Source of the DNA: Bilabrum cf. latius
Taxonomy: Eukaryota
Assembly: GCA_965178125.1 (NCBI GenBank)
Contig: OZ237743.1
Span: forward strand, 1,351,703-1,371,702
DNA: 20,000 bases
Reading direction: 5' to 3'
Part shown: piece after piece, positions 606 through 18,750 of the stretch
How the letters are laid out: each line of letters opens with the position of its first letter
Position numbering within the stretch: position 1 is the first letter of the stretch
The notes under the pieces: model-generated
The model's input: the letters and a program-made list of their open reading frames with translations, nothing else
What the model was told of the DNA's origin: nothing
The model's database searches: none
Translations under genes and position numbers: made by a program

Positions 606-886
606 CGGATTTTATTTTTTCGCACTGTGACCAAACACTGCACTGAAATCATATGACTGACAGGAGTTCAACTGCCTGATCGCGAAAACTCAATCTACAT
701 GCAACAGCAGCATAAACATGGCAGCGTGTCCTGGCGCGAAAGCCAGTCCCGAAGCCAACATACTTGCATTCGGCAAAGCAATATCCCAAAAGAGGGCTAC
801 AGCTCACCGAGCGTCTGTGATTCCAGACTCCTCCGTTCTCTGGCGCCGCTGCGGAAATTCGCCTCTCTCATCAACGGATGCTCCTC

Positions 887-2368
887 TCAGGCCCTGATCT
901 GGAATCGCCCGGTCCTCATGAATGCCTTGACACCCTTGAAGAACCTGTAGCTCTCGGAGCTCAGCAGCACGTCCCTCACGCCCAGCCCGCTGGCAGTGCC
1001 AGAGCCCATCACGAACCGCAGCAGGGAGTGGATCCGCTCGATGGGAGTCTCTGCGCCCTCCTCACACGTGGCAGTCCCCTCCAGCCGAGGGGTGGTCCCC
1101 GGGGGGAAGGCCCCCACGATCCACGTGACCGTGTTGGCCTTGGGGTCGTACGATGCCTTGCCGTGCGTGGGCTTCAGGTTCACCGAGTTCACCGCCTTGG
1201 GGAAGAAGATCAGCAGGCCAACGTCCTCAGCCACCGGTGCGCTGGGCTTGCCGGAACCAGCCACCACCCCGGTGCCTCCCGAGGAAGAAGCCGACCTGGA
1301 CGAGACGCCTCCACGCACTGCGGTGGGGCGCGCCCCCAGCTCGAAGCGGACCTTGGCCTCGTGCCCGTGCCACTGCACGTCGGGCCGCACGGACACGGGC
1401 GCGTGGAAGGGCCCCCTCTGCGCGCACCTGTACTGCATGAGTCGGAATGGTCCGTCCGGGGGCACGAAGGAGAGGCAGCGGTCCGTCTCGAACTTGCCCA
1501 GCCGCACGCAGGGGTGGAAGGACGCGTCCTCGATCAGGCCGGGGTCGCTGAAGAGCAGAGTCAGGTCCGGGAAGCCGCTCATCTTGCAGTTGCAGTGCAG
1601 CGTGCCCCGGATGTCAGTGTGCGTGACCACGCCGTTGCCCTCGACGATGGCGTCCACCTCCTCGCGGAGATCGAAGAAGATCTCGTTCGCCGTGTACTTG
1701 ACGTCGCTGCGACGCCATGGGATAATGCTAGTGGCCCCAGCCCCGAGTTTGTCGCCGAAGGTGGTCCGCTGGCCGGTCACGAATGTCGTGAATCGCGACA
1801 GCACCGATGGGGGAGATACAAGCGTGACCAGCGCATTCGGCTCGGTCAGCATGGTGTAGCCCAGAGCAACCATCTCGTGGAGCAATTGGTAGGCGATCGC
1901 GAAGTTGTTCATCAGGACGCGAGAGGTGTGTGAGCCGAAATACAACTCGTACACGTCCACGATCCTGTGGAGCAACTCGATCACCAAAAGCGGTGGCGCA
2001 TCACCGGAGAGCACCGCCACATAAAAGCAATCGTTTCTAAGAATCGATACAATGTAGTTCTTCCCTGCCACCAAGACGGGGGGAACCTCGTCGCGCCTTG
2101 GACAAGCGTTCATCACCTCCCAGAACGTGTCTACGACGGCCCTGCCAGTCATGCTGTCCCAATGCTTCTCCAGCACCACATCACTGCGATGAAAATCATA
2201 GTTTAAGCAATAAGAATCAATCCTGCAGCATTGATGTCGGCTTCTGGTGCAGCCCGACGCATGCAAAGCATCAAGCTTCGCCGACAGGCGCGCAATACCG
2301 GCAGATTTTTCGGAAGTAGTCTGAGCTCACCCGTTGCTCGAACTCAAAACAAACAATGATTGCAACAT
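887..2368 (-). CDS. AP3M: AP-3 adaptor complex mu subunit (444 aa; exon 1 2368-2331, intron 2330-2184, exon 2 2183-887, stop TGA)
   Basis: Spliced N-terminus MLQSLFVLSSSNGDVVLEKHW; PPLLVIELLHRIVD; NNFAIAYQLLHEM..GY..LTEPN; IPWRRSDVKYTANEIFFD; MSGFPDL; SFHPCVR; LSFVPPDGPFRLM; C-terminal FKGVKAFMRTGRFQIR. All are typical mu3 motifs. Confidence 0.95.
2184..2330 (-). other. spliceosomal GT-AG intron (147 nt, phase 2)
   Basis: GG|GTGAGC donor and CGCAG|T acceptor restore the conserved M.xSLF.L...GDV.LEKHW start of mu3. Confidence 0.9.
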
Positions 2369-2652
2369 GGATTGAGCTATAAGCCAGCAATTAGTTGCCA
2401 AACGGGCAGGATCGTTTGCTTTTCTTGCTCGCGATTTTGTGTGCTCGTAAACACACACAACTTAAATTATCTGGTTATTCACAGGCAGTCCTGAGTCTGC
2501 AACAAACTGGCTCAAGGCTGCTCTTTTTGGTGAGTTTTCTTGTATCTATCGCAATAATCGGTGTATCGCTATTGTATTACAGACCAGCATGGCACAAATG
2601 CTCCCGCTGTACTCTTCCAACCATGCAGTACCGCTGCCAACTGTAAAGGGCA

Positions 2653-5600
2653 ATGTCAGGGAGTTTTCCTCCTGAACCGTTGTCCAAACAAGCTGCGTGG
2701 CTCCAGTACCCCCCAAGAGGCGTTGTATCAGCGGCTGCCCTCCAGTCAATCGACTTGGATGCTGGTGGTGCTGCTGCTTAGCCAGTCCCAGGACCCGCAC
2801 GCTTCCTTCAATTCAGCAGAAATTCACGTGGAGCTGCTGGTGCAGCTCTAGATGATGACCCTGACTCTATCGTGCGATCGTGGTCACGGGCATCTCCAGA
2901 AACAGCCGGGGAAAAGCACGGTGCTGCCTTAGGCCAACAAAGCATGAGCAGCGAGCATAAGGGACCTGCTCCTGTTGCACGTAACGAGCCTGGTATCAGC
3001 ATTGATGGTGATTTGGTACTAGCATTGGAGCCAAGTGGGTCCTCCAACACGGCTCGATGGGACAAGGAGAGGCGTCGAGCTGCACTTCTCGGGCCAAGAC
3101 CGCAGGACAGACCGAAGCGGCGCTCGATGCTGGACGGCAGCTCCAGCTCCAGCTCTAGCTCAGAAAGTGACGATGACGACGATGGCGAGGATCGACTGGA
3201 CCCTGGGAGTGACGCTCGCGCTGCAATGGAGGCCGCAAAAGATCAGGATTCCCAGGGGCAGTCAAACTTTGACCTAATGATGCAGCTACCAAGCGAATTC
3301 CGTCGCATGCTCTACTAGCTTGTAGTCTGGCCGTGGTTCGACCGAGTGGTGCTGATGCTTGTCTTTGTCAATTGCATATTCTTGGCATTGGACCGCCCCG
3401 GGGTAGACCCCGACTCTGCGCTAGGCCAGGTCATCGCGACGTCTGACCTTGTGTTTGTGATCATCTTTGCAGTGGAGTGCGGCATCAAGCTGGTGGCCCT
3501 GGGCATCATGAGGGAACCGGACGGGTACTTTAGGAGCGCGTGGAACTGGCTGGATTTCCTCATCGTGATAGAGGGGATTGTCAGCACCAGCACGGACGGG
3601 GACGGACAGCTGAGCGGGCTGCGGGCCTTCCGCGTGCTTCGGCCTCTCAAGACAGTGTCCAGGCTGGAGGGGCTCAAGGTCCTCGTGAATGCGCTGCTGG
3701 CGTCGCTACCTATGCTGTGCAATACTCTCATCGTTTGCGGGTTCTACTTTGTTATTTTCGGGATCGTGGGTGTTCAGATTTGGCGAGGACTCTTCGTGCA
3801 GCGGTGCTTCATGCGAGACTCTGGGCTGCTCGACCCAGAGGACGAGCGGCTGTGTGGCGGCATGCACCAGTGCCGGCAGGAAGCATTTTGCGGTGAGTGG
3901 ACCGAAAATCCAGCTGAAGGGGTGGTGTCCTTCGACAACATCCTGTGGGCGTGCAGTACCATCTTCGCCTCGATCACGCTGGAGGGGTGGGCGCAGGCCA
4001 TGTACGACTCCCAGGACTCGGGCGGGAGGTGGAGCTGGCTCTTCCACGTGCTCATGATCGTGTTTGGCGCCTTCATTTTGATGAATCTCACGCTTGCCAT
4101 CATTCTGACCAAGTTCCGAGACAGTGTAGAGGAGCAGGAGCGGGACAAGGTGCGGGCTCAGCTCTTGCAGGAGAGGAAGGCTCTCATGAAGGCGCGCATC
4201 ATGCGCATGCGGAGGGAGAGAGAAGCTATGCGCGCGCAGCAGGCCATAGGGGCAGTCACACAGACCGCCAGTCTCAAACTTGCGCAAGCTGCCAGCAGAG
4301 CAAAGGCAAGAATCGCCAAGTCGGCTTCACAGCGAAGTGCGGGCAAGGACGGCCGACCGAGCGATGGAGAAGCCCACCCGCCATCCATTGCAGCCCCGAC
4401 CGGTCCATCTGCCGTGCATACCGAGCAGCTCTCCGTCGACCGTCTGGGTCCTGGCATCGATGCAGGCTCGATCGAGATGACTGCTGCGGGCAGCCGAGCA
4501 GCAGGGTCGGGTAGGCCCGGCTCCGCCTCCCCAGAACACGACGAGAACCAAGGGGAGGACCCCAACATGGACTTCTAGCTCGACGGGGCTACCGCTGGCC
4601 AGGCTCGTTCGAATGCCCATGTGGGGCTTGGTGCGATCAGCAAGCGCTCAAACCTGGGGGGTACTGGACGGGCTACCGCGGACCAGTGGGTGCGTGGCGA
4701 GAGGAAGGTGCGGTCCAGCGGGGAGGAGGAAGATGTCGAGGGGATGCTGAGCGACTATGATGAGTATGGTGACGACTCGGACGACGACGACGAGGACGGC
4801 GACGGGCTATTTGGCGCTGTCTCGTGGTGCTGCGTTGCTGCTTGGCAAGGCCTTCTTGCGGCGACTGCGTGCGTAGATGCTGCAATATGGGCGCCCATCC
4901 GGGAAGTTGTGGGTCCCGTCGCCACGCATTCATGGTTCGACAGCGCTATCCTGGCTTGCATCGTGCTCAACACTGTAGTGCTGGCCATTGACCACCACAA
5001 CATGGACGCAGAGCTGGAGCGGGGCTTGGCCACCGCCAACATCATATTCACCTTCATTTTCGTCGGAGAGATGGTGCTAAAATGGCTGGGGCTAGGCCTC
5101 TACGTGTACTTTTCGGAGGCATCCAACACGTTCGATTTTGTCATCGTGGTGCTGTCTCTAGTGGAAGTGGGACTCGGGGGCTCGTCTTCATTCGCTGCCT
5201 TCCGGACTGTCCGGCTCTTCCGAGTCGCTCGAGTGGCCAAGTATCTGAAATCAATGAAAATGATCATCGATGTGGTGGGGCGATCGCTGGAGAGTTTCGG
5301 ATACATCGCTTTGCTGCTGCTCCTGTTCTGCTTCATCTACAGCGTGCTAGGCATGCAGCTATTCGGTGGTGCGTTCGATGAGTCCGTCGCACTGGGTGAG
5401 GAGCTTCCGCGAAACAACTTCGACACACTGCTGTGGTCTTTCGTGACAGTGTTTCAAATCCTTGCTGGAGAAGCCTGGAATGAGGTCATGTACAGCGTGG
5501 TGGGTGCAACAAGCCCCATCTATATACTGTACTTCATCTCGTGGGTGGTCATCGGTCAGTTCATCCTGCTGAACCTGTTCCTTGCAGTTCTGCTGGACAA

Positions 5601-8600
5601 CTTCTCGCAGTAGGAGGAAGAGGACGAGGAAGAACTGGAGAGGGAAGCGCTGCACAAAGTAGAGCATGCGTCCTAGATCCAGCAAGGCGACGGCATACCC
5701 GGTCGGGAGAGCCCTGTGAGAGTGACAGCTCTCGCAGATGCCACCGGGATTCAGGCTGCAAACGAGTAGACTCGGCGGGCAAGGGTCGTGCAAGCAGAAG
5801 AGAGCCAGTCTAGGCATGCCGAAGAAGACTTGTTGTGCGGGTAGAGAGCTTCTCGAGCGCTGTGCTTCCCTGCCCGAATGCTATGCAATGCTTGTGGCAA
5901 TCCCAGCGCCATGGACGACGCCCAGTCTCGCATGGCGTCAGCTGCATCAGAGCGACTGCGAAAGCAACGACGATCTCGCAAGGTGAGACAAGCACTTGAG
6001 AAGGCGGCAAAATCCCGTGCAGCCAAAGTCTCAAACCGCTTGGAAACGGCACGGCTGTCACTGGGTAGCCTTGGATTCATGCGGCCCCGGTGTGAAGTGG
6101 CTCTGATGGCCATGTTGCGGCCTCTGGAGCCAGGTGCGCTGCAGGAGTATGCTGTGCAGCAGGCCCAGCAGAGCGGGCTGGCCGAAGATCATGGCCTGGA
6201 CGGGGTTGGGCTCGTAGCAACCAGCAGCGCGATAGCAACTGCGGCACACTCCCATGCGGCTCAACCGGATACGTTTGGCAGTGGGCAAGCAGCGGGGGCT
6301 TAGCACAGTGTGCAGCGAGAAGCCTCGGAGCGCTCCAAGATCTCGGCCATGTCCAGCGAAGGGGAGGTGGGTGTGTCGCTTCCCGAAGCCTCCGTGCGTC
6401 TATCCGAGGTCATGCTGCGAGAGCTAGTGTACTTGCAAGCGGAGAAGCGTATCAGGGCGATTCGGGAGCGAAAGCAATAGATTGTGGAGGCCCAAGCAGG
6501 CTTGATGCCTGTCGATAGTCCATCCGCAGTTGCTGCTGTGGAGCAGAGCCAAGCCGGGAGAGGACCGAGCGACCCCCGGGTAGACCGGCAACGCATGTTC
6601 CGGGCTGCATCATCTCCTGCCATGCAGCGAACTCTGTCGAAGATCAGCCCGCTGCAGAAGGTTCTGCTGGAGGTCGAGGACGCGCTCCCACCACTGAACA
6701 GGCTGGACGCCATCCGAATGGCCAATCTAGAGAGGGTCATGAGCGGCAGGCCCAAGGTGGTCCTAAAGCCTAGGCTGCCCATCACACTCGCGTACGAGCT
6801 TGGATCCAGCACGCAATGGGCACGATAGCTGCAGCCAGACCGCCCCATGCTGCTAGATGTGCCCCAGGACGAGCACGACCGGCGGCTCGTGGTGTGCATG
6901 AACGTTGTCCGCAAGTGGCGAGATTTCATGGGCGCTCGCAGGCCAGCGCCTGCGAATGAGGAGGCGCAGGTGAAGCTTGCTGAAATCGATGCCGTGCGTC
7001 GCATTCGAGCACATTCTGCGATGTCAGCTGGAGTCTCTCCGCTCGGCGAGCGTCAAGCAGCGAGTCGCAATGGTGGCTAGGACTCTCCGGTCGTCCGTAT
7101 CGCAGCGGGCAGCGGCGAATCGAATGATAGCCCATCCGCGAGTCGGGGCAGTCAGAGCCATGCTGATTCGAACGCGGTACTGGTGGATGCTGCAAATCTG
7201 GACCAAGCTCTGGAGTTTGGCGAGATCAATTATTATGGAGGACAGGAGGCGCCGGGCTAGCCGGCAGCCGACGCTCAGCTTCCCTCAACGCAGGCACGAA
7301 TGGCTGCACTGACGTGCGTCGATGCTTGGGAGCACGTGCTAGCCCGCTCGCTGGGCCTCCTCGTGGACCGCCGGATCAACCCCGCTGACGCAGACCTCTC
7401 AGATGAGCGAGAGATTGAAGACGGCATCTTGTTGCCGAGAGAGGCGCCACCACCGGAGTCCCCTGCATCCGCACCTTCAAAGCCAGGCGGTGGCGGCGAT
7501 GAACCCGATCCAGACTTGCCCGAAGCTCTGGAAGCGTTGATGCTGGACGACGAAACCGCGGAGCGGCGCATCTTCATGGAGTACCAGGGCAACCACGTGT
7601 GCTGCGTGCCGCGGCACAGCTACCTTGCGAAGAGCATGCGGTACTTCGTGGAGCACCCTTTCACTGTGTGCACCATGCGGGGGAAGCCCTGGAACATAAC
7701 GTTCGATGGCATCGTCCTCGTCCTCATCATCATCAGCTCGGTTCTGCTGGCATCCGAGCCTCCGCCAAGGGACGGAGTCACGCAACCTGGTGTGGGGGTC
7801 AACTCCACCGGGGGCGATGCACTGGACCCCTCACAGCCGCTGGTTGCGCTAGAGATCGTGTTTACAATCCTGTTTACCGCTGAGATTGTCATAAAGGTGC
7901 TTGCGTATGGGTTCCTGTTCGCTCCTGGAGCCTACCTGCTGTCTGCCTACAACGTGATCGATTTCCTGGTTGTGGTGGCATCCGTGCTGAATCTGTCGCT
8001 GACTCAGTACAACTTCGGATTTTTGCGGACACTGAGGCTCCTCCGCACATTGCGGCCTCTGCGCGTGATCAGCAGGAACGAGGGGATGCGCGTGGTCGTG
8101 AGCGCCCTCATCTCGAGTGTAGGGGGCATCGTGAACGTGGCCGTCGTGGTACTGCTCGTGTGGCTCATGTTTGCAATCCTGGGCGTGCAGCTGTTCTCAG
8201 GCCGCATGGGAGACTGCAATGACCCTGACTTCCCGGCTGGTGCCCCTCGAGAGGGCGTACTGGTGCAGCCAGGCAACTCTTCCGCGGGGTACGTCGTGGA
8301 CCCATGCGGCCCAGGAGTATTCTTTACGGACGAGTCGGGTGAGCGCGCTGAGCGCGAGTGGGTCACGCCAGATCAGAACTTCGACAACGTATTCAACGCC
8401 ATGCTCCTGCTGTTCGTGACCAGCAGTGGCGAGGGGTGGCCAGACGTGATGTTTCGCACGGCTGACGTGACCGGCGTGGAGAAACAGAGGGAGAGGGGTG
8501 CGAGCGCAGTCGCGGTCCTGTACTTCATCGCCTTTATCATAGTGGGGTCATTCTTCTTCTTGAACCTGTTCGTCGGCGTGGTGTTCGACAACTTCATGCG

Positions 8601-11202
8601 GCTGAAGAAGGAGTACGACTCGGCAGGCTTCTTGACGGACGGGCAGAGGGACTGGGTCGGGTAGTAGAGGAAGCTCGCGAGGGCCAGCCCCGAAGCAATG
8701 ACTCGAATGCCATCCGACACCAAGGCAAACGCGTGCCGCCGTCAGGTCTTCTTGCTAGTGAACAGCAGCTGGTTCCGGTGGGTCATCATCGCGTGCATCA
8801 GTCTGAACATCGTCGCGCTTGGGATCAACTATGCCGAGGAGAGCGATGGGTACGCTCTTGCACTGGAAATCATAAACTATGTCTTCAGCCTGGTGTTTCT
8901 GGCAGAAGCCATCCTTAAGCTATATGGCATGGGGGTGGACCAGTACTTCGTGTCGCCGTGGAACCAATTTGATTTCGTGGTTGTGCTGGGCTCGATCGCC
9001 GACGTGATTTGCGCCAGCATCAACTTCCCGCTTGGTGTACTCCTGGCTAGGATATTCAGGATCATGCGCGTCCTTCGCGTCGTGCGACTAGGCAAGGAGA
9101 TCAACAGCTTGCGGAGGCTGATCCTCACCCTATGGGCGGCAATCCCCTCCCTGATCAACGTGGGGTCCCTGCTGCTGCTGCTATTTTTCATCTACGCAAT
9201 CATGGGCGTGCAGAGCTTCGGGCACATAACCCTTGGAGAGTCTATCGATGCCCACACCAACTTCTTTAACTTCACGAACGCTCTCCTGACCCTGTTCCGC
9301 ATCTCGACCGGAGAGGGCTGGGAGGGCATCATGTTCGACTGCATGGTGGAGGAGCACGGCGGAGCTGCGATCGCTCCGCTGTACTTTGTGAGCTTCGTGA
9401 CCATTGCTTCGTTCGTTATGCTCAACCTTTTCATCACCATCATCGTGGACGAGTTCGAGCAGCAGGAGCAGGAGTCGGCGGGTATGACGGAAGGGCACCT
9501 CCGCGCCTTCAACATGGTGTGGAAGTTCTTCGACCCGGCGGGGACTGGTCGCATCCCGGTGGCATACCTCGAGCCATTCCTCCGTCACCTGCCGCCCCCC
9601 ATGGGCATCTCCACTCCTCAGGACGACGAGGACGCCTTGAATGCCGCTCGCAGCGAGGCTGCTTCCGACAAAGGGGGCCAGCGCTCCCTGCAGGCCCTGG
9701 AGATGAAGCGGGACCGGGCCACATTTTAGGCATTCCTGGCGCGCCTCAAGCAGCTGGACCTGACCTCGTACGAGAGGCACGTGCACTACAGCGAGCTGCT
9801 GCTGGCGGTGCACCGGACCAGCTTCGGCTCGGACATCCCCGAAGAGGTCATGGCCTCGCTGGGGCTGGACCGGGCCCGCATCCGGGCCAAGATCGAGAAG
9901 AAGGCCCTGAGACAGGCTGCTCGCAGGCGGCTGCTCAAGCAGTACGCGCAGGCAGCGGGTGCGTCCTAGAAGGAGGCCTCCGCGATGGTGCGGGCCGCGG
10001 AGGAGCAGGAGAGGAGCGACGCGGGGCTGGATCCCGCCCCGCCCGCGCGGAAACGTGGCGGCATAGGCAAGGCAGCTGGCGGCAAGAATCTCAAGAAGAA
10101 GGGAAAGTCCAAGGCCACGCTTGTGCATAAGGTTATGGCGGACGTGGCAGTGTTTGCAGCTGGCAGCGATGTGCGCCAGCTGGAGGACATGGTGCAGGTA
10201 CGCACGCAGAAGCACAGCGTGGCCGAGCTGATGGCCTCGGTAGCCATCGTGAACGCGTTCAGAGCCTGGAGGAAGCGCATCCGGAGGCAGGCCAAGCTCA
10301 GGGCGCAGCACGAGGCAGCCGTGCGGAGAGCTGTGGTTGCCATCGCGGGGTCGGAGTCTGCGGCCGTCGCGTCGCTGGCTGGGTCTCCGAGCCCTAAGCG
10401 GGCAATCTCGCGCGGACTTTCCAGGGGAGGCGTGGCGTCGTCTGCGGCATCGGGTGCGGCACTTGCTGCCGACAAAGTGACTGGTAAGCCGCCAGCTGTA
10501 CCCCGGGACAGCAAGATGGGCGCGGGCTCGGTGGGACGCGACCGAGGGACGTGGGGAGGCCAATCTAAGCAAAGGTCAGACGAACTCCCGGCCTCCTAGG
10601 CCAGTGCTGACCCAGAGCTTGGTGGGCCTGCGCAGTCGCGCCCTGCCGCTTCTGCAGCTGCGAAACTGGTGAGGAGCAGCACCAGCAATGGCTCGCCGGC
10701 CCAACCGCAAGCGAAGAGTGCCACAGCTCAAGCACCTGCACCGGCACCTGCACCCGCGCCGGCACCTGCACCTGCACCTGCACCTGCACCTGCACCTGCA
10801 CCTGCACCTGCACCTGCACCTGCACCTGCACCTGCACGTGCACGTGCACATGTCCCAGAGTCCGCACGAGCTGGGCGGCAAGCATCTGAGTCTCTGGTAG
10901 CCAGTCGTTCCGGGCATAGCGATGATGCCGGGGGTCGCCTGGAGCAGCAGGACAAGAGCTTCTCAGGTGCCATGGTTGAGGACTAGGGTGACAGGCAGTC
11001 ATCGGAAGTATCGGGTACAAGGAAGGCAAAGAAGGCGTCCCGTCCCAAACTTACGCCGGAGGAACTGCTGGCTAGGACCGAACGTGCCTTGGAGGCAGTC
11101 ATGCGCCTGAAGAAGCACAAGAAAGTTGGCAGCCAAGCGCGTGGTGGCTCCAGCGAATCAAAGCTTGCAGGTGGAGAAGCAAGCAACACAGGTGGTCAAT
11201 AA
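2653..11202 (+). CDS. four-domain voltage-gated calcium channel alpha-1 subunit (EEEE filter), 2849 aa, apparently intronless, with 18 in-frame TAG sense codons; stop TAA
   Basis: The ORF-track pieces starting at 2872, 3346, 4621, 5878, 6484, 6847, 7300, 8698, 9781, 9985 and 10669 share one frame and are separated only by TAG. S4 sensors: LRAFRVLRPLKTVSR, FRTVRLFRVARVAK, LRTLRLLRTLRPLRVISR, ARIFRIMRVLRVVR. Pore loops: ITLEGW, LAGEAW, SSGEGW, STGEGW. EF-hand-like WKFFDPAGTGRIPVAYL and IQ-like IVNAFRAWRKR. The first in-frame ATG after TAA 2644 is at 2653, so the start is inferred. Confidence 0.93.
10732..10836 (+). repeat. coding hexanucleotide repeat (GCACCT)n encoding an Ala-Pro tract in the channel C-terminal tail
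   Basis: About 17 units of GCACCT with a few synonymous variants, in frame with the channel. Confidence 0.95.
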
Positions 11203-11345
11203 TGTTATATGAATCGTAATACCGTTTGTTGTTATAACTAATGTAGAGCGCGATAGCTGCGTTCCATTCCGATTCCGCAGCATTCGCGAGAGCAAACCAA
11301 ACTACACTCCATCCCTGGTCTATTAGCATTTTAGCCTCTGAAGTG

Positions 11346-12314
11346 ATGAATAAACCAACCGCTGGAGTTCAAGAGGTCTAGCGAAGACGGTGGGATAAAG
11401 ATGAGTACGAGAGGCGAGCGGCAGCACGCCGAGAAGGCCTTGAACATCTGGCCACTGATGGGGAGTGGCATGGAAAAGACAGAGCCGACAAACTTGCTGC
11501 CGCAGAAGAGCTCATTGGGAATCAGGCTCGCAGTGAGGTGGACGCTGATGCAGACAAGCTGCAGGAGAAATCTATATCGGTATTGAGCGCTGGCCCGAAC
11601 GCGCAAGGTCCAGCGATGAGCAAGAGGGCATGGCTCAAGAAGCGCGACTTTGACGTAAGCGTAGACAATAGAATAGGATAGCGCTCCATAATTACGGCTG
11701 GGGCAGTAGGCGTGCACGGCGGAGGATTCTACTGCCCGGTTACAAAGGTCACTCTGAAGGATTCCCAGTCCTATCTAGATCACATCAATGGCCGGAAATA
11801 TCAGAAAGCACTTGGTTATGGAATGCGGGCAGAGCGATCAACAGCGTCTGATGTTCGATCGAAACTGAAAAGCCTTCTGGAGCCGAAAGCGGGAGTGGCA
11901 ACGGCGGCACCTGCTGAATCAGCAAAAGAAAGGCGAAAAAGGAAGAGAGAACAGCAGAAAGCAGAGAAAGCACGAGACAATGGGTTAGGTGGGATGATGG
12001 ATGCGCAATCAATTGCACAGCAGCTGGGTCTGGCAATGTCTCAGCAAGGCGGTGCAAATGCTGGACAACCGGCTAGTGCAGCTAGCATACAGTCACTGGC
12101 TAGTTCCGAGTTGGACTCTGAGCCTGCAGCGAAGAGGCCCCGAGTGGGTCCATCCACGCAAGATAGTCAGGCGGACCCGGGCTAGCTCGGTGACGGTCCC
12201 TGGGAGGCGGAGGGCAAGTTTGCTGGTCTGGACGAGGTGCCCGAGGCTGCCATCGACTGGCAGCTGGCACGGGCCATGGGGGTCGAGGTTGCATCGCTAG
12301 GTATGGAACCATGA
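11346..12314 (+). CDS. ZMAT2: ZMAT2/Snu23 U4/U6.U5 tri-snRNP-associated matrin-type zinc finger protein (322 aa; in-frame TAG at 11379, 11679, 12183; stop TGA)
   Basis: MNKPTAGVQEV*RRRWDKDEYERRA ... RAWLKKRDFDVSVDNRIG*RSIIT...GGFYCPVTKVTLKDSQSYLDHINGRKYQKALGYGMRAERST matches the ZMAT2 blocks RRKWDKDEY and GYYC..C...VKDS..[24 protein letters not shown]. C-terminal IDWQLARAMG resembles the MAAMMGF tail. Confidence 0.9.
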
Positions 12315-12366
12315 TTGCGCGCCTGTGCAGTCCCACCCAATTCATTCACTGGCAGTCGTTCCTGTA

Positions 12367-13219
12367 TCAGCCCTTTTCACCAGCCACCTGCTCACCACCA
12401 TCCTTCCCGGGTGCCTACTGCTGCTCAGCTCTCCTCCGCTTCCACATGGCCACTTCCTCCTCGTGCCGCGCTAGAGCCAGCTGCCTCTCCTCCTCCTCGG
12501 TGAGGGGCGCCGCACTGCCGTCCAGAGAGCGAGCCCCGGAACCAATGCCGTCGGCTCCCATCGCAGCGCCACGGAGGGCGCGCTGCAGCCTGGCTCTCGC
12601 AGCCATCTGTGCCTCCTCGATTGCTCCGCTGTCTTTATCCTCATAGAATCTTCGGATTCCCATTGCTGTGTTGATCTGCTGCCGGCGACAAGTGAACCAA
12701 ATCACTGACAGCATTCCGAAATATGTTGCGAACCCCCAATTCCTTGTTCGAATAAGACAGCCTGCTGACATGCAGACAGATCGAAAGCAGACATGAATGC
12801 GCTATAATCAAATGGGGCAAATTACTCAATTAGCCTAGTCGATTGCCACACTCACCTCCAGATTCCTTGAACCGGTGTGCTGCCATTAGTATGCCGCACC
12901 CTGTTGCCCAAGAGAAGGCCTCAATTGCACATTTCTCCTAGTGAAACGTTCGTAGGCTTTCCATATAATCATTCCATGAGCCCCTCAGTCCTCTGCGGAC
13001 CAGTTCAGACCAGGTCGTTGGCTACGCAGACATCTGCCTCTTCTCTTTCAGCCCTTGCACGTACTCTGAGAGATCTTCGCTTATTTCTCCCTGATCGCTT
13101 CCTATTTCAATTTCTCTCGAGGCGTCACAAGCTGCTTTTCCGCGAGTACCGGCCACGAGGAGACCCGCTGATGCCACAGCGAACTGTACTCGACGAATGC
13201 GCAAACACCGTGCCAGCAT
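12367..13219 (-). CDS. COX20: probable cytochrome c oxidase assembly factor COX20-like protein (~252 aa; exon 1 13219-12856, intron 12855-12762, exon 2 12761-12367; in-frame TAG at 13022-13024, 12938-12940, 12415-12417; stop TGA)
   Basis: Arg-rich mitochondrial-presequence-like start MLARCLRIRRVQF. Core FH*EKCAIEAFSWATGCGILMAAHRFKESG-GCLIRTRNWGFATYFGMLSVIWFTCRRQQ fits the COX20 pattern (H..PC...., two TM helices, NW, W..CR). Canonical G|GTGAGT...CAG|GC intron. Confidence 0.65.
12762..12855 (-). other. spliceosomal GT-AG intron (94 nt, phase 1; alternative NAGNAG acceptor 3 nt upstream)
   Basis: Donor GTGAGT at 12855, acceptor TCAGCAG ending at 12762; the splice is frame-restoring. Confidence 0.75.
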
Positions 13220-13402
13220 TCGTCGCCGTCAGGTAGAAAAAATTTAATATGTACTTGTTCTGGCGCTGGCTAGAAACCAAACTTGATTAATCTGTCCAGC
13301 TCTACTTGCGTCGAATTGGTTACACACGAACTTCGTGTTGATGAACGTTCCGCAATCGCAGTGCCAGCTGCCAGCTGCGATCGTGCACACGTAGGTCGAA
13401 GA

Positions 13403-14047
13403 ATGGCAGCAGTGTCTGCAAAGTCTGGCTCTCCTCCTTCAGATAAAATGGTTGAAGCTTCGCCGAATCTGCGTTTGCTGTGGCATTTGGGAAACGAAGG
13501 GCTGTTGGAAGGCGGCGATTCGGAACGAAGCGATGATATTAAGGACTACTCTGAAGTGAAATTATTTGGTGATTGTGACATGCGCGTCTACTTGGGTCGC
13601 GGATACGAAAACTTGGAGGAGGTGTGCAAAGCCCTGTGTACGGCTCGCAAGTACAGGCGTTCGCTGCCAGATCTTGGTTCGACAGGTCGGCTCGAGCTGC
13701 CAGGTGAAGACTTCACCGGTCAACTGGAATCTATGCTAGGGCACCATGGAAAAGGTTGGTCAAGCATCAAAGGAGTCGTCACAGATGACACTGGAAGGAT
13801 CGACGAGAAGCATTATCTCAGCCACAAGCTCGAAGATGGAGAATGGGAGCAGAAGGAAACTGCAGGAGACCGACTAGAAGGGACTGCATATACCATGTGG
13901 ATAGCTGAAGGCATGGACTTGGACTCAATGAACGTGAAGCAGGGGCACACCGTGCTTGACGATGGCAACCATGCCATACAGGTTCTGCAGCTGGATGGGG
14001 CTACTGGTGGATGGGACTGGTTCATCATTGACAGGGTTACTTCCTGA
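13403..14047 (+). CDS. hypothetical protein (214 aa from ATG 13403; stop TGA)
   Basis: Open frame with globular, acidic, protein-like composition, filling the gap between two genes. No family recognised; the start is uncertain. Confidence 0.6.
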   Translation: MAAVSAKSGSPPSDKMVEASPNLRLLWHLGNEGLLEGGDSERSDDIKDYSEVKLFGDCDMRVYLGRGYENLEEVCKALCTARKYRRSLPDLGSTGRLELPGEDFTGQLESMLGHHGKGWSSIKGVVTDDTGRIDEKHYLSHKLEDGEWEQKETAGDRLEGTAYTMWIAEGMDLDSMNVKQGHTVLDDGNHAIQVLQLDGATGGWDWFIIDRVTS

Positions 14048-14255
14048 ACCTCTGTCGGTACTCTATGCACCACCCAACCAAATCGGTCCGGTACGTCGTA
14101 GCTGCTGTATCCAGGTTTCAGAGCATGTTCCTGGAAAGATCCGAGTTGCGGGTATGGTCTCAACGGTGCGAGCCCCTGTCACAACTGTCCTGTTTAGCAG
14201 TTTCGATCTTTCACTGCAACCAAACCATTGCACCATGATCATTTATTGTAAGAAA

Positions 14256-15251
14256 ATGAGGTCAGTGGTACTGTCGGCAGCTGCAGCAGTGCTGCTGCAG
14301 TCCCCCTGCACCGCTGCACTGGGAGGGACCAAGTGCAACAGCCGAGTTGCAGCCGATTTCGATGGGCCAAACTGGGCATGGCTGCCGCTGGAGTTCCAGG
14401 CAACTGGCTCGCCAGCTGCAAGCTGCAAGCTTCCGTCTAGAGTGAGTTTATGCCTGGCCCCTTTGCTCCTGCTCCTGGATTGCATGCTGACTAGATGGCG
14501 AAATGGCATCATCCACTGAGCTCGCTCCATGCACGGCCACGAGGAAAACATAACAGATCTCATATTCTGTGCATAAAATGTGCTGTACTACTTGCATTCA
14601 TTTTTGCAGGGTCGAGCCATGTTCGCCGGCAGCATGCAGCTGCATGTGCCGCCTCTGCCTCAGGATCCCTCTGCAACCCTAGCCACTGAGCAGGCCATCA
14701 TCGAGGTTGCATGGGACTTCCACACTGGACAAGCTGGGAATGCCAGCGTGACTGTGTTGTCCACGGGGGCGGACAGCAACACCACCATGCTACACTGGGT
14801 GCACCGCGACGACTTGCAGGCGCAGTTCGTTGCATGGGGCCAGCATGACGCACCGCGGCTGCAGGCCAGCTAGCTGCTGTCACACCAGGTGCAAGGCCAG
14901 GCTCTTGTCTCGCAGCTGATATTCACAGGGGCCGGTTCTTGCCGGAGGTACAGGGACACGAACATCCAGTCGCCCCAGGTGACCGGCGATCTGGTACTAG
15001 TCCCGCTCCCTGGGCGCGGGAGGACATTTATGGCTTCTACGGCTGAGAACATGTCCATCACGACCGTGGAGCCAGTGGTGGCATTTGAAAGCTGTGTCCC
15101 GGTGGGTATCACGCGGACTTTCTGTCCCAGTGGAAGCGGGGCTGGAGGCTCAGCCAATTGCAACAAGGTAGCAGCTGGCCTGCTGGCGGTGCAGTTTGGA
15201 GATGAAGCCGGGCCGATGAATTTCAACGTCCCAGATGCATGCCAAGATTGA
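14256..15251 (+). CDS. secreted protein, possibly ependymin-related (~275 aa; exon 1 14256-14441, intron 14442-14609, exon 2 14610-15251; in-frame TAG at 14871; stop TGA)
   Basis: Signal-peptide-like MRSVVLSAAAAVLLQSPCTA; phase-0 GTGAGT...TTTTTGCAG intron; ORFs 14580-14873 and 14889-15251 are one frame split by TAG; N-glycosylation sequons NAS, NTT, NMS; Cys motifs CKLP, SCVPV and terminal FNVPDAC. Confidence 0.65.
14442..14609 (+). other. spliceosomal GT-AG intron (168 nt, phase 0)
   Basis: Strong donor GTGAGT, pyrimidine tract plus CAG; contains an in-frame TGA at 14517. Confidence 0.7.
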
Positions 15252-15325
15252 AACCAAGCACTAAATTGCGCATGGCGATTGTACAAATGGCACCCACACT
15301 CACAGCTGTACCCCGACATCCACAT

Positions 15326-15568
15326 GCACACTCAGCTGCACCCTGGCGTCCATCCAGCGCCCACACCATCTCCCACCCACACACTCAGCGGCACCCTGGC
15401 GTCCATCCAGCGCCCACACCAGCTCCCACCCACACACTCAGCGGCACCCTGGCGTCCATCCAGCGCCCACACCAGCTCCCACCCACACACTCAACTGCAC
15501 CCTGGCGTCTATCCAGCGCCCACACCAGCTCCCACCCACACACTCAGCTGCACCCTGGCGTCCATCCA
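15326..15568. repeat. 53-bp C/A-rich subtelomeric minisatellite, ~4.6 copies
   Basis: Unit CACACACTCAGCGGCACCCTGGCGTCCATCCAGCGCCCACACCAGCTCCCACC; the CTCA(G/A) anchor recurs at 15331, 15384, 15437, 15490 and 15543. Confidence 0.95.
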
Positions 15569-15570
15569 CG

Positions 15571-16182
15571 GTAGGGTTAGGGTTAGGGTTAGGGTTAGGG
15601 TTAGGGTTAGGGTTAGGGTTAGGGTTAGGGTTAGGGTTAGGGTTAGGGTTAGGGTTAGGGTTAGGGTTAGGGTTAGGGTTAGGGTTAGGGTTAGGGTTAG
15701 GGTTAGGGTTAGGGTTAGGGTTAGGGTTAGGGTTAGGGTTAGGGTTGGGGTTAGGGTTAGGGTTAGGGTTAGGGTTAGGGTTAGGGTTAGGGTTAGGGTT
15801 AGGGTTAGGGTTAGGGTTAGGGTTAGGGTTAGGGTTAGGGTTAGGGTTAGGGTTAGGGTTAGGGTTAGGGTTAGGGTTAGGGTTAGGGTTAGGGTTAGGG
15901 TTAGGGTTAGGGTTAGGGTTAGGGTTAGGGTTAGGGTTAGGGTTAGGGTTAGGGTTAGGGTTAGGGTTAGGGTTAGGGTTAGGGTTAGGGTTAGGGTTAG
16001 GGTTAGGGTTAGGGTTAGGGTTAGGGTTAGGGTTAGGGTTAGGGTTAGGGTTAGGGTTAGGGTTAGGGTTAGGGTTAGGGTTAGGGTTAGGGTTAGGGTT
16101 AGGGTTAGGGTTAGGGTTAGGGTTAGGGTTAGGGTTAGGGTTAGGGTTAGGGTTAGGGTTAGGGTTAGGGTTAGGGTTAGGG
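15571..16182 (+). repeat. internal telomeric tract (TTAGGG)~101
   Basis: Near-perfect array with a single TTGGGG variant at 15745-15750. Confidence 0.98.
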
Positions 16183-16242
16183 TATCTAATATAAAGTCAG
16201 GGACAGGGTCGGGGAAAAAATATTTTCATCTTCAATATTTGT
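16183..16242 (+). repeat. ~60-bp telomere-adjacent leader, copy 1 (TATCTAATATAAAGTCAGGGACAGGGTCGGGG...)
   Basis: Near-identical sequence recurs at 18325-18384, again directly after TTAGGG and directly before a 155-bp array. Confidence 0.9.
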
Positions 16243-17318
16243 CGAAAAACGACGTGCTATGATCTCGGTAACTACAGGTGATATGAAGACCGTTCAAACT
16301 GCATCGGGACGGCCTGGGGGCACAACATGGGCCAAATGTTCCCCAGGTTCCGTTCTGGCCGCGTGGCGCCGATATGGGTGTATGAAGAATTTCACACCGA
16401 AAAACGACGTGCTACGATCTCGGCAACTACAGGTGATATGAAGACCGTTCAAACTGCATCGGGACGGCCTGGGGGCACAACATGGGCCAAATGTTCCCCA
16501 GGTTCCGTTCTGGCCGCGCGGCGCCGATATGGGTGTATGAAGAATTTCACACCGAAAAACGACGTGCTACGATCTCGGCAACTACAGGTGATATGAAGAC
16601 CGTTCAAACTGCATCGGGACGGCCTGGGGGCACAACATGGGCCAAATGTTCCCCAGGTTCCGTTCTGGCCGCGCGGCGCCGATATGGGTGTATGAAGAAT
16701 TTCACACCGAAAAACGACGTGCTACGATCTCGGCAACTACAGGTGATATGAAGACCGTTCAAACTGCATCGGGACGGCCTGGGGGCACAACATGGGCCAA
16801 ATGTTCCCCAGGTTCCGTTCTGGCCGCGCGGCGCCGATATGGGTGTATGAAGAATTTCACACCGAAAAACGACGTGCTACGATCTCGGCAACTACAGGTG
16901 ATATGAAGACCGTTCAAACTGCATCGGGACGGCCTGGGGGCACAACATGGGCCAAATGTTCCCCAGGTTCCGTTCTGGCCGCGCGGCGCCGATATGGGTG
17001 TATGAAGAATTTCACACCGAAAAACGACGTGCTACGATCTCGGCAACTACAGGTGATATGAAGACCGTTCAAACTGCATCGGGACGGCCTGGGGGCACAA
17101 CATGGGCCAAATGTTCCCCAGGTTCCGTTCTGGCCGCGCGGCGCCGATATGGGTGTATGAAGAATTTCACACCGAAAAACGACGTGCTACGATCTCGGCA
17201 ACTACAGGTGATATGAAGACCGTTCAAACTGCATCGGGACGGCCTGGGAGCACAACATGGGCCAAATGTTCCCCAGGTTCCGTTCTGGCCGCGCGGCGCC
17301 GATATGGGTGTATGAAGA
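16243..17318. repeat. 155-bp tandem satellite, variant A, ~6.9 near-identical copies
   Basis: CGAAAAACGACGTGCT recurs at 16243, 16398, 16553, 16708, 16863, 17018 and 17173. Confidence 0.97.
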
Positions 17319-17570
17319 TTTGCATGTTTATTCAATATGCATGGTTTATCTGTCAATTGTAGAATGGGTATGGTGTACATGACAGTTGTATTTGCTGTGT
17401 GGATTGCTTTGATCTAAGGTATTAACTGGTTGACACGTCAAGACTCAACAGAATGCCTCCCGGCTCCTAATGCTGCGTCCGAATGGGTCAATGGCAGACA
17501 CTTTGGCAAACTCCTCTCACAAGCTGGCCCAGCTGCCACTGACCTCAATTGCCGTCCCCCTGCCTGCCTC

Positions 17571-18198
17571 TCACTCGTCACCGAAAGCTGCTAGGAGCGC
17601 TTCCACAGCGTCGACGTCTGCCGCATTGAGATCTCCTTTCGCCGTCTTCTCGAGGGCCGTCATCAGGTTTGCGAACATTTCCAACTCGCGGTCCCTCTCT
17701 TCAATTGTTGCCTCCACGTCCTCGCGCATGTCTTTGAGAGTCCGGCTGACGCCCATCGCGCTGTCATCGCAGGCAGCAAGGATGCGGTCCACCAGGTGCC
17801 GCTGCTAGTCGGTGAAGGCGGTGTCCTCCATTCCACTGTTGTTGTCAGAGTCGTCTTGCTGGTTCTGGCCGTCGTTTTCTTCTTCCTCAACCAGCTGCTC
17901 CTCATCCTCCTCGTCCTGCTGCTCAAACCCCATTGGAGCGTCGTCCTCGTCCTGCTCTCCAGCTGCGTCTGCGCGGTACCGACCACCGATGTCCTCTTCA
18001 TCTTCGTCAGAGTCCTGACGAGGCAGTGATGCTGCTGCTCCACTCCTTGCGCCACTTGCTCCCCTTTTCTCCTGTTCAACGGCGCGGCGTGCTCCTCTGC
18101 CATTGCCTGGTTGGACGACTGCCGGTCGCTCGGGCTGCCTCTATGCCCGCGGCTCAGCCTCAGCCGCCTTCTTGCCCTTTGACTCTGCCGGTTGTGCC
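17571..18198 (-). pseudogene. 5'-truncated fragment of an acidic protein gene (C-terminal ~209 codons; in-frame TAG at 18141-18143 and 17805-17807; stop TGA)
   Basis: Reading TAG as sense gives one frame KAQPAESKGKKAAEAEPRA*RQPERP...QDSDEDEEDIGG...EQQDEEDEEQLVEEENDGQNQQDDSD...AFTD*QRHLVDRILAACDD...LLAAFGDE. The frame is open right up to the telomeric tract, with no start codon at its 5' edge. Confidence 0.65.
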
Positions 18199-18324
18199 TT
18201 AGGGTTAGGGTTAGGGTTAGGGTTAGGGTTAGGGTTAGGGTTAGGGTTAGGGTTAGGGTTAGGGTTAGGGTTAGGGTTAGGGTTAGGGTTAGGGTTAGGG
18301 TTAGGGTTAGGGTTAGGGTTAGGG
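18199..18324 (+). repeat. internal telomeric tract (TTAGGG)21
   Basis: 126 bp perfect array. Confidence 0.98.
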
Positions 18325-18750
18325 TATCTAATATAAAGTCAGGGACAGGGTCGGGGGAAAAAAAATTTCATCTTCACTTTTTGTCGAAAAAATGCGCGCG
18401 ACGATCTCGGCAACCAGATGAGATATGAGGACCGTTCAAACTGCATCGGGACGGCCTGGGGGTACAATGTGGGGCAAATGTTCCCCAGGTTCCGTTTTGA
18501 CCGCGCGGCGACAATATGGCTGGACGAAGATTGTCATGCAGAAAAAATGCGCGCAACGATCTCGGCAACCAGATGAGATATGAAGACCGTTCAAACTGCA
18601 TCGGGACGGCCTGGGGGTACAATGTTAGGCAAATGTTCCCCAGGTTCCGTTTTGACCGCGCGGCGACAATATGGCTGGACGAAGATTGTCATGCAGAAAA
18701 AATGCGCGCGACGATCTCGGCAACCAGATGAGATATGAAGACCGTTCAAA
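18325..18750. repeat. leader copy 2 (18325-18384) plus 155-bp satellite variant B, ~2.4 copies, truncated by the terminal telomere
   Basis: Period 155 (GAAAAAATGCGCGC at 18386, 18541, 18696); shares cores GACCGTTCAAACTGCATCGGGACGGCCTGGGGG and CAAATGTTCCCCAGGTTCCGTT with variant A. Confidence 0.95.

What the first reader, a model, noticed from the sequence alone, without database searches (positions are those of the whole stretch)
2653..18198. Non-canonical nuclear genetic code: UAG is a sense codon while UGA and apparently UAA remain stops
Seen: 27 in-frame TAGs in five coding regions. Channel: 2779, 3316, 4576, 5611, 5674, 5767, 5842, 6301, 6478, 6826, 7078, 7258, 8662, 8665, 9727, 9967, 10597, 10984. 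ZMAT2: 11379, 11679, 12183. COX20-like: 13022, 12938, 12415. Secreted protein: 14871. Subtelomeric fragment: 18141, 17805. There is no internal TAA/TGA and no frameshift, although CAA and CGA codons are common, so random C>T decay is excluded. No gene needs TAG as its end. Known: most nuclear stop reassignments move UAA and UAG together; UAG-only changes are rare (e.g. UAG=Gln in the fornicate Iotanema spirale, UAG=Leu in a rhizarian, some phyllopharyngean ciliates). Inference: this GC-rich genome with 94-168 nt introns and TTAGGG telomeres does not look like a ciliate, so it may be an independent, possibly undescribed reassignment. I cannot identify the organism from this window.
Basis: partly seen in the sequence, partly recalled or inferred. 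Interest (0 to 1): 0.95.

Follow-up and report, generated by a model that had tools for sequence, protein, structure and literature searches.

The report
Protist reads UAG stop as glutamine
This unidentified GC-rich microbial eukaryote and a distant relative read the stop codon UAG as glutamine while keeping UAA and UGA as stops, a rare genetic-code variant known from only a few other lineages.

Summary
All 27 listed TAGs are in frame. The 2850-codon four-domain cation-channel gene (2653-11202) holds 18 TAG, no internal TAA or TGA, and ends in TAA.

Spliced, polyadenylated RNA contigs from two studies and unspliced DNA contigs from a third carry the TAGs unchanged. No contig joint lies inside the channel. 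This excludes editing, splicing and consensus error.

A syntenic metagenome contig from a distant relative (L001; AP-3 mu 84% identical by tblastn, 85% in the tree alignment, channel 69%) has 22 in-frame TAGs of its own in the channel orthologue and 27 more in five other ORFs.

Where one species has TAG, the other has Gln in 13 of 29 cases, against a 2.6% background. Two TAGs are shared. Log-likelihood is -61.5 for Gln and -90.5 for the next residue, His. Three deeply conserved columns under TAGs are Gln (48, 40 and 24 of 53 homologues).

Twelve gene ends use TGA 9 times, TAA 3 times and TAG never. One TAA sits exactly at the universally conserved AP-3 mu C-terminus.

So UAG = Gln and UAA/UGA = stop, the same code as NCBI table 15. 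The lineage is not named. It is non-opisthokont, and its best named hit is Cafeteria. Six literature searches found no description.

The parts
2653..11202 (+). Intronless CDS of a four-domain voltage-gated cation channel (2850 codons plus TAA stop). It has 18 in-frame TAG, at 2779, 3316, 4576, 5611, 5674, 5767, 5842, 6301, 6478, 6826, 7078, 7258, 8662, 8665, 9727, 9967, 10597 and 10984.
   Evidence: four Ion_trans repeats, E 1.5e-238. Homologues, best named Cafeteria at 52%. RNA contig X5 record 2 covers 2628-10722 and record 4 covers 10860-11241, both with 0 differences. Syntenic orthologue in L001.
11200..11202 (+). TAA stop of the channel, followed by an AT-richer 3' UTR and a second in-frame TAA at 11239-11241.
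   Evidence: sequence. GC is 0.56 in the last 120 nt of the CDS and 0.43 in the next 100 nt. The listed RNA contig ends at 11241, while the DNA contig of X6 runs on (a weak hint only).
11346..12314 (+). ZMAT2/SNU23-like zinc-finger gene: 322 codons, TAG at 11379, 11679 and 12183, TGA stop.
   Evidence: Homologues that their sources name 'U4/U6.U5 tri-snRNP component SNU23'. Alignment A1. RNA contigs with 0 differences.
12367..13219 (-). Exons are 13219-12855 and 12760-12367, with a 94-nt intron at 12761-12854. TAG at 13022, 12938 and 12415; TGA stop.
   Evidence: Spliced contigs in X5, X7 and X8. Frame and stop. No Pfam family.
14256..15251 (+). Two-exon gene with a hydrophobic, signal-peptide-like N-terminus (judged by eye). 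The 168-nt intron is 14442-14609. TAG at 14871; TGA stop.
   Evidence: Spliced contigs in X5, X7 and X8.. No Pfam family.
887..2368 (-). AP-3 complex mu subunit. Exons are 2368-2331 and 2183-887, with a 147-nt intron at 2184-2330. It has no TAG and a TGA stop at the conserved C-terminus. It serves as the control gene and as the anchor for synteny with L001.
   Evidence: Pfam Adap_comp_sub, E 7.5e-61.. Spliced contigs in X7 and X8, and a poly(A) loose end at 677 in X5.
13403..14047 (+). ORF of 214 codons of unknown family, with no TAG and a TGA stop. It lies within an RNA contig.
   Evidence: No Pfam family.
17571..18338 (-). Unverified subtelomeric ORF with 2 TAG (17805, 18141). Its N-terminal part is a translated telomere-like repeat.
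   Evidence: Not covered by the reads laid. No Pfam family.

Best explanation
The window comes from the nuclear genome of a GC-rich (about 57%), intron-poor microbial eukaryote with TTAGGG telomeres. Its genetic code has UAG reassigned from stop to glutamine, while UAA and UGA still terminate translation. This is the same code as NCBI table 15 and as Iotanema spirale. The change is fixed and old. A relative whose synonymous sites are saturated against the window uses TAG even more often (27% of Gln codons in the channel, against 14% here) and shares two TAG positions.

Shown here: TAG is in frame in expressed, unedited, unspliced mRNA; the frames are under purifying selection across the TAGs; TAG corresponds to Gln; TAA and TGA end genes, and TAG ends none of 12.

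Inferred from established knowledge of such codes (Panek et al. 2017, passages read): decoding by a dedicated tRNA-Gln with anticodon CUA, one mutation away from tRNA-Gln(CUG), which pairs with UAG but not UAA; and an eRF1 whose N-domain has lost efficient UAG recognition. Neither gene lies in the sequences I hold.
For: (1) The channel frame has 18 TAG, 0 TGA and only the terminal TAA in 2851 codons. The other frames carry 19-88 TGA.
(2): runs X5, X7 and X8 (studies P2 and P4) hold contigs that skip the 147-, 94- and 168-nt GT..AG introns, and X5 has a poly(A)-type loose end at 677, so they contain RNA. X5 contigs cover 2628-10722, 10860-11241, 11315-13296 (spliced) and 13397-15253 (spliced) with 0 other letters and 0 gaps. 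X6 (study P3) is unspliced DNA, also with 0 differences.
(3) L001 is syntenic (AP-3 mu next to the channel). Its channel orthologue has 22 in-frame TAG and no TAA or TGA in 2061 codons. Five further L001 ORFs of 342-675 aa need 3-10 TAG each, and three of them have Pfam domains (Sod_Cu, ADP_ribosyl_GH, RDD).
(4) Of 29 orthologous sites with TAG in one species and a sense codon in the other, the partner is Q 13, E 4, V 3, K 2, and A, I, D, R, H, T, L once each. Two sites are TAG in both. The Q background is 2.6% (binomial P about 1e-13). lnL is Gln -61.5, His -90.5, Glu -94.6. Ordinary Gln codons are conserved at 52%, close to the 45% seen at TAG sites.
(5) In an alignment with 53 more distant homologues, the only TAG columns with a clear majority residue are Gln: 48/53, 40/53 and 24/53.
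(6) Codon-position mismatches of 0.27 / 0.185 / 0.631, with the same pattern in every inter-TAG segment of 100 or more codons, show selection on the protein throughout.
(7) Stops: the window has 5 TGA and 1 TAA; L001 has 4 TGA and 2 TAA; TAG ends 0 of 12 genes. AP-3 mu ends '...GRFQIRA' then TGA in the window and TAA in L001, exactly where homologues from animals, fungi and oomycetes end.
(8) There is no in-frame TAA in the 4912 channel codons of the two species, although CAA is used 56 times.
Against: No tRNA(CUA), eRF1 or proteomic evidence is available, because no genome is held and there is no tRNA or Rfam hit in the window or L001. The tool itself labels X5 'RNA? (probably DNA)' and X7 and X8 'RNA?' (a guess); my reading of them as RNA rests on the spliced joints, the transcript-shaped contigs and the poly(A) end. 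One X7 contig (depth 2.9, 32 nt from its end) reads T for C at 6589, which would make CAA into an in-frame TAA. This is probably an error, but it is the one datum that could hint at tolerated TAA. Sixteen of the 29 orthologue partners are not Gln. Several well-occupied deep columns under TAGs have no Gln majority (for example R 10/47, G 11/45, I 14/53), and the ZMAT2 columns favour K (7/14) or are variable. All of these are variable positions. Twelve gene ends are too few to exclude rare use of TAG as a stop.
Confidence: 0.93

Rival explanations
1. Ambiguous code: UAG is both sense (Gln) and stop depending on context, as UAR and UGA are in Condylostoma or Blastocrithidia.
For: Only 12 gene ends were examined, so rare TAG stops cannot be excluded. 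Such codes exist (abstracts listed).
Against: 0 of 12 gene ends use TAG. Each of the 12 gene models has a TGA or TAA at its end, and for AP-3 mu in both species that end coincides with the C-terminus conserved among homologues. The base after 70 sense TAGs shows no strong bias (G 23, C 21, A 13, T 13).
Confidence: 0.04
2. UAR = Gln with a strong bias against TAA: both UAA and UAG are glutamine codons (NCBI table 6 type, as reported for Amoeboaphelidium), and only UGA is the stop.
For: An X7 contig reads CAA as TAA at 6589. TTA is very rare here (1, against 28 TTG), so A-ending T-initial codons can be disfavoured. Amoeboaphelidium is a parasite of algae reported with TAG and TAA = Gln (passages).
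Against: TAA ends the channel, followed by an AT-richer UTR and a second in-frame TAA. TAA ends L001 AP-3 mu exactly at the universally conserved C-terminus, and it also ends the L001 ADP-ribosylglycohydrolase ORF. There are 0 in-frame TAA against 40 TAG in the 4912 channel codons, with 56 CAA. The AP-3 mu tree puts the window outside animals plus fungi (90/71), so an aphelid is unlikely.
Confidence: 0.02
3. Standard code with artefact or decay: the TAGs are assembly errors, pseudogene lesions, intron-borne, or edited to CAG in the mRNA.
For: None found. This is the default explanation before testing.
Against: Independent DNA contigs (X6) and RNA contigs (X5, X7, X8) agree with the window, with no joint inside the channel. 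Only TAG occurs and never TAA or TGA, although about 15 would be expected under C>T decay. There is purifying selection across the TAGs. A second species shows the same pattern at different positions.
Confidence: 0.005
4. UAG is sense but encodes another residue (Glu, His, Lys, Leu, ...), or a non-standard amino acid.
For: E is the second commonest orthologue partner (4/29). K leads one ZMAT2 column (7/14). UAG = Leu, Glu and Ser codes exist (passages).
Against: Gln beats the next candidate by 29 log-likelihood units. The three conserved deep columns are all Gln. The partner codons are CAG or CAA, one transition from TAG.
Confidence: 0.01

Closest known systems
Iotanema spirale (Fornicata) nuclear code: UAG = Gln, UAA/UGA stop (Panek et al. 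2017, PMC5304391; passages read)
   Same: The codon table is identical: UAG alone is reassigned, to glutamine; UAA is kept as a stop; the organism is not a ciliate. The same mechanism is expected (tRNA-Gln CUA plus altered eRF1).
   Different: It is an unrelated organism, an anaerobic metamonad. Here the genome is GC-rich with TTAGGG telomeres, the best named hit is a stramenopile, TGA is the main stop (9 of 12 gene ends), and two deeply diverged species share the trait.
Ciliates with UAG-only = Gln: Protocruzia tuzeti and two phyllopharyngean lineages (McGowan et al. 2024, PMC11687900; passage read); NCBI table 15
   Same: Same codon table.
   Different: Those are ciliates. The window has chromosome-scale subtelomeric structure with TTAGGG repeats and 155-bp satellites, and its proteins do not group with ciliate homologues (38-40% identity to Moneuplotes and Stentor channels, against 52% to Cafeteria).
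Rhizarian exLh (UAG = Leu) and Scotinosphaera (UAG = Ser)
   Same: UAG is uncoupled from UAA in a non-ciliate nuclear genome.
   Different: A different amino acid. Leu has lnL -135.0 against -61.5 for Gln here, and Ser -118.7.
Amoeboaphelidium protococcarum, and table 6-type codes (UAR = Gln) of ciliates, ulvophytes, hexamitids and oxymonads
   Same: Stop-to-Gln reassignment that involves UAG.
   Different: In those codes UAA is also Gln (passages). Here UAA terminates 3 of 12 genes and is never in frame. The window also falls outside the opisthokont clade in the AP-3 mu tree.

Membership tests
UAG-only stop-to-Gln nuclear code (NCBI table 15 type; Iotanema-type) | In-frame UAG inside conserved, expressed protein-coding genes | tested here: met
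   25 TAG in four RNA-supported CDS of the window. 22 TAG in the L001 channel orthologue and 27 in five other L001 ORFs.
UAG-only stop-to-Gln nuclear code (NCBI table 15 type; Iotanema-type) | UAG corresponds to glutamine | tested here: met
   13/29 orthologue partners are Gln, against a 2.6% background. lnL is -61.5 (Gln) and -90.5 (His). Deep columns are Q in 48/53, 40/53 and 24/53.
UAG-only stop-to-Gln nuclear code (NCBI table 15 type; Iotanema-type) | UAA retained as a stop and not used as sense | tested here: met
   TAA ends 3 of 12 genes, one of them at the conserved AP-3 mu C-terminus. There are 0 in-frame TAA in 4912 channel codons. Caveat: one low-depth X7 contig reads CAA as TAA.
UAG-only stop-to-Gln nuclear code (NCBI table 15 type; Iotanema-type) | UGA retained as a stop | tested here: met
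   TGA ends 9 of 12 genes and is never in frame.
UAG-only stop-to-Gln nuclear code (NCBI table 15 type; Iotanema-type) | UAG not used as a terminator | tested here: inconclusive
   0 of 12 gene ends. The sample is too small to exclude rare use.
UAG-only stop-to-Gln nuclear code (NCBI table 15 type; Iotanema-type) | Cognate tRNA-Gln(CUA) present and no tRNA(UUA) | not testable with these tools
   No genome is held. No tRNA in the window or L001.
UAG-only stop-to-Gln nuclear code (NCBI table 15 type; Iotanema-type) | eRF1 N-domain changes that weaken UAG recognition | not testable with these tools
   eRF1 is not in the 37.8 kb available.
UAR = Gln code (NCBI table 6 type) | UAA in frame as Gln, with UGA the only stop | tested here: not met
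   as above.
Four-domain voltage-gated cation channel (Cav/Nav superfamily); identity of the host gene | Four Ion_trans repeats in one polypeptide | tested here: met
   Pfam PF00520 matched in 4 stretches, E 1.5e-238. The GPHH match is weak (22 bits, below the 26.8 cut-off). 2990 homologues at E<=0.001 among 8000 scored.

The most novel reading that the evidence does not exclude
This is an independent and so far undescribed UAG-to-Gln-only reassignment that defines a whole clade: at least two species whose synonymous sites are saturated against each other. The clade consists of GC-rich, non-ciliate, non-opisthokont protists, possibly bigyran stramenopiles related to Cafeteria. It would be the first nuclear stop-codon reassignment in that supergroup. 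Because several independent 2025 runs hold the organism, it may be in culture and could serve as a tractable model of how UAG is uncoupled from UAA.
Probability: 0.5. Interest if true: 0.8.

Novelty: new member of a known kind. Interest (0 to 1): 0.72.

Why it matters
Nuclear codes in which UAG and UAA have different meanings are rare. The passages read list Iotanema, a rhizarian, Scotinosphaera, Protocruzia, a few phyllopharyngeans and one oligohymenophorean. These codes bear on a long-standing question: why are the two codons almost always coupled, and how can a single eRF1 stop recognising UAG but not UAA? A further, independent case would help in several ways. It comes from a GC-rich genome, where TAG arises readily from CAG, and it offers two diverged species, a chromosome end and RNA data. 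That would allow comparative analysis of eRF1 and tRNA-Gln evolution and dating of the switch. There is also a practical consequence: gene callers that use the standard code will truncate a large share of this organism's proteins. Under the standard code the channel breaks into 19 pieces of at most 467 aa.

Tried and rejected
- The genome search 'own': no genome is held, so no genome-wide codon inference, tRNA(CUA) search, eRF1 or 18S was possible.
- ARAGORN found no tRNA in the window or L001. Rfam gave 0 matches at gathering thresholds.
- The look-up of sequencing runs listed no holder that is on record as RNA. RNA status was inferred only after laying the reads.
- ZMAT2/SNU23 alignment: the TAG columns are variable (K 7/14, Q 2/14 at one; F, N and G at the other) and do not reveal the residue.
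- Most channel TAGs fall in lineage-specific loops that are gapped in the 53 homologues.
- The Pfam search of the 'COX20-like' exons, the secreted protein, the 13403-14047 ORF and the subtelomeric ORF found nothing, even at E<=10 for four of them. The spliced COX20-like protein could not be submitted, because joined sequence may not be typed.
- The ESM Atlas search on AP-3 mu gave only generic AP-3 clusters and no useful taxonomy.
- The AP-3 mu tree (25 rows, chosen as the named hits plus the best unnamed ones out of the 64 hits) left the position relative to stramenopiles unresolved.
- dN/dS could not be computed because dS is saturated. Codon-position mismatch rates were used instead.
- The six literature searches found no report of a matching organism. 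One search returned no papers at all.
The supplements of Panek 2017 and McGowan 2024 may list further lineages.
- Not used: structure prediction, complex prediction and the HMMER representatives search. They would not bear on the question.
Full report
**1. Observation**

- Under the standard code, the stretch 2647-11202 breaks into ORFs of at most 467 aa. With TAG read as sense it becomes one frame of 2851 aa with 18 TAG.
- That frame has no TGA and only its terminal TAA. The other five frames of the same DNA carry 19-88 TGA and 1-11 TAA.
- Pfam finds four Ion_trans repeats spread along the whole frame (E 1.5e-238). The product is therefore a four-domain voltage-gated cation channel, and it can only be made if the ribosome passes the TAGs.
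- If the TAGs were C>T lesions of CAG at the observed rate, about 7 TAA (from 32 CAA) and 8 TGA (from 36 CGA) would be expected. None is present.

**2. Gene models and stops**

Spliced contigs confirm three GT..AG introns of 147, 94 and 168 nt and allow exact models:

| Gene | Coordinates | TAG | Stop |
|---|---|---|---|
| AP-3 mu | minus strand, 2368-2331 + 2183-887 | 0 | TGA |
| Channel | 2653-11202 | 18 | TAA |
| ZMAT2/SNU23 | 11346-12314 | 3 | TGA |
| Two-exon gene | minus strand, 13219-12855 + 12760-12367 | 3 | TGA |
| ORF | 13403-14047 | 0 | TGA |
| Signal-peptide-like gene | 14256-14441 + 14610-15251 | 1 | TGA |

- The ZMAT2 identity is supported by homologues that their sources name SNU23.
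- The 'COX20-like' label has no support from Pfam.
- The two TAGs in the subtelomeric ORF 17571-18338 are unverified. That ORF starts inside a translated telomere-like repeat and was not covered by the reads laid.

**3. Is it in the RNA and in independent DNA?**

Eight runs hold half or more of the sampled words of 2653-12400; rows holding any part come from eight studies. I laid X5, X6, X7 and X8 (three studies, none of them the probable source study) on 600-15300.

- X5, X7 and X8 contain contigs that skip the introns. X5 has a 24-T loose end at 677, which is the poly(A) tail of the minus-strand AP-3 mu mRNA. The X5 contigs begin and end at gene boundaries. I read these three runs as RNA, although the tool marks them only as guesses (X5 even as 'probably DNA').
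- X5 record 2 spans 2628-10722 with 0 other letters and 0 gaps. Record 4 spans 10860-11241. The records over ZMAT2, the minus-strand gene and the secreted gene are also identical to the window.
- X6 is unspliced and crosses intergenic DNA, with 0 differences.
- No joint lies inside the channel.
- Only two differences were listed in any of the four runs, both in single low-depth X7 contigs: C>T at 6589 and a 2-nt deletion at 6964.

Splicing-out, editing and consensus error are therefore excluded as far as contigs can show.

**4. A second species**

The AP-3 mu search returned P0142, an 85%-identical protein on a 21-kb contig. The search for related loci fetched 17.8 kb of that contig as L001.

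- L001 is syntenic: AP-3 mu lies next to the channel, at 72-75% nucleotide identity over the long aligned blocks (67-85% over all blocks).
- Its channel orthologue is cut by the contig end after 2061 codons. It has 22 in-frame TAG and no TAA or TGA.
- Five more L001 ORFs of 342-675 aa need 3-10 TAG each. Three of them have Pfam domains: two Cu/Zn-SOD-like halves plus TSP1, an ADP-ribosylglycohydrolase, and RDD.
- The two channels are 68.6% identical over 2030 aligned residues.
- Mismatch rates by codon position are 0.27, 0.185 and 0.631, with the same pattern in each inter-TAG segment of 100 or more codons. dS is saturated.

The frames are therefore under purifying selection across the TAGs, and the two species are far apart.

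**5. Which amino acid?**

- There are 29 aligned sites where one species has TAG and the other a sense codon. The partner is Gln 13 times (CAG or CAA), Glu 4, Val 3, Lys 2, and seven other residues once each. Two sites are TAG in both species.
- Gln makes up 2.6% of aligned residues, so the binomial P is about 1e-13.
- Using the empirical orthologue substitution table, lnL is -61.5 for Gln, -90.5 for His and -94.6 for Glu.
- Ordinary Gln codons are conserved at 52% between the two species, close to the 45% found at TAG sites.
- Independently, in an alignment with 53 more distant homologues, the only TAG columns with a clear majority residue are Gln: 48/53 at the 'GMQLFGG' column (TAG in L001), 40/53 at the shared TAG (window residue 2007), and 24/53 at a third column. 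The other well-occupied columns are variable.
- TAG supplies 14% (window) and 27% (L001) of the Gln codons in the channel.

**6. UAA and UGA**

- Twelve gene ends in the two species use TGA 9 times, TAA 3 times and TAG never.
- AP-3 mu ends '...GRFQIRA' followed by TGA in the window and by TAA in L001. This is exactly where homologues from animals, fungi and an oomycete end.
- The channel's TAA is followed by an AT-richer stretch (GC 0.43, against 0.56 before it) and a second in-frame TAA 13 codons on.
- No TAA is in frame in the 4912 channel codons, although CAA occurs 56 times.
- The only contrary hint is the X7 contig that reads CAA as TAA at 6589 (depth 2.9, 32 nt from the contig's end). 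I regard it as a probable error but report it.

**7. Mechanism**

Shown: UAG is decoded efficiently as Gln (18 sites in one mRNA rule out leaky read-through), and UAA and UGA terminate.

Inferred from what is established for such codes (passages of PMC5304391 read): a tRNA-Gln with anticodon CUA, which cannot pair with UAA, and an eRF1 with weakened UAG recognition. Neither could be examined. No genome is held, and there is no tRNA or Rfam hit in the 37.8 kb available.

**8. Who is it?**

The organism is not identified.

- GC is about 57% (from the base counts; 50-66% in 1-kb windows). Introns are short. (TTAGGG)n lies at the chromosome end, with interstitial blocks and a 155-bp satellite.
- The best named channel homologue is from Cafeteria roenbergensis (52% identity, and a similar length of 3106 aa). 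The next named ones are at or below 40%.
- In an AP-3 mu tree the window and L001 (100/100 support) group with unnamed environmental sequences, outside the animal plus fungal clade (90/71). Their position relative to the two stramenopile groups is unresolved.

A bigyran stramenopile is my best guess, at about 50%. An aphelid is unlikely, both from the tree and because Amoeboaphelidium is reported to read TAA as Gln as well.

**9. Comparison with what is known, and novelty**

The codon table equals NCBI table 15 and the code of Iotanema spirale, Protocruzia tuzeti and two phyllopharyngean lineages. UAG = Leu (rhizarian exLh) and UAG = Ser (Scotinosphaera) are the other uncoupled non-ciliate cases (passages).

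Six full-text searches found no report for a stramenopile or any GC-rich non-ciliate that matches. The library is incomplete, supplements were closed, and the 2025 data sets may have an accompanying paper that I cannot see.

I therefore file it as a new member of a known kind, and give about even odds that it is undescribed.

**10. Verdict**

- Confidence in 'UAG = Gln, UAA/UGA = stop' is 0.93.
- Interest is 0.72.

Noticed in passing
window 15327-20000: Layered subtelomere. In order: a 53-bp repeat x4.6 (15327-15568); an interstitial telomere block of 102 units (15572-16183); a 155-bp satellite x6.9 (16243-17318); a gene-like acidic ORF; 21 more TTAGGG units (18199-18325); the 155-bp satellite again x2.4 (18386-18750); then the terminal (TTAGGG)208. 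This looks like repeated telomere healing or capture.
   Followed up: partly
window 2628 (X5 record 2): The 8.2-kb channel RNA contig starts 25 nt upstream of the ATG and carries 16 leading letters that do not match the window. This could be an adaptor, an upstream exon or a spliced leader.
   Followed up: no
window 11315-13296: One RNA contig covers both ZMAT2 (+) and the convergent minus-strand gene. Their stop codons are only about 52 nt apart (12314 and 12367), so the 3' UTRs of the two transcripts must overlap.
   Followed up: no
L001 11956-13446 (-): A protein with two Cu/Zn-SOD-like halves (one Pfam-matched stretch), a TSP1 domain and a C-terminal hydrophobic segment. Both SOD-like halves have a TAG at the same place in the C-terminal motif 'A-x-C-V-I-G', so the TAG (Gln) may predate the internal duplication.
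   Followed up: no
window 10732-10849: A (GCACCT)x19.7 repeat that encodes an (Ala-Pro)n tract in the channel's C-terminal tail. RNA contigs break here because the tool skips repeats.
   Followed up: no
runs X1-X8: Near-identical sequence (0 differences over kilobases) is held by runs filed under four different coded organism labels and four studies. The organism may therefore be shared across cultures or co-cultured with or contaminating other organisms. I did not pursue identities.
   Followed up: no
window 6589: An X7 contig reads T for C, turning CAA (channel residue 1315) into an in-frame TAA. Depth is 2.9 and the site is 32 nt from the contig's end.
   Followed up: partly
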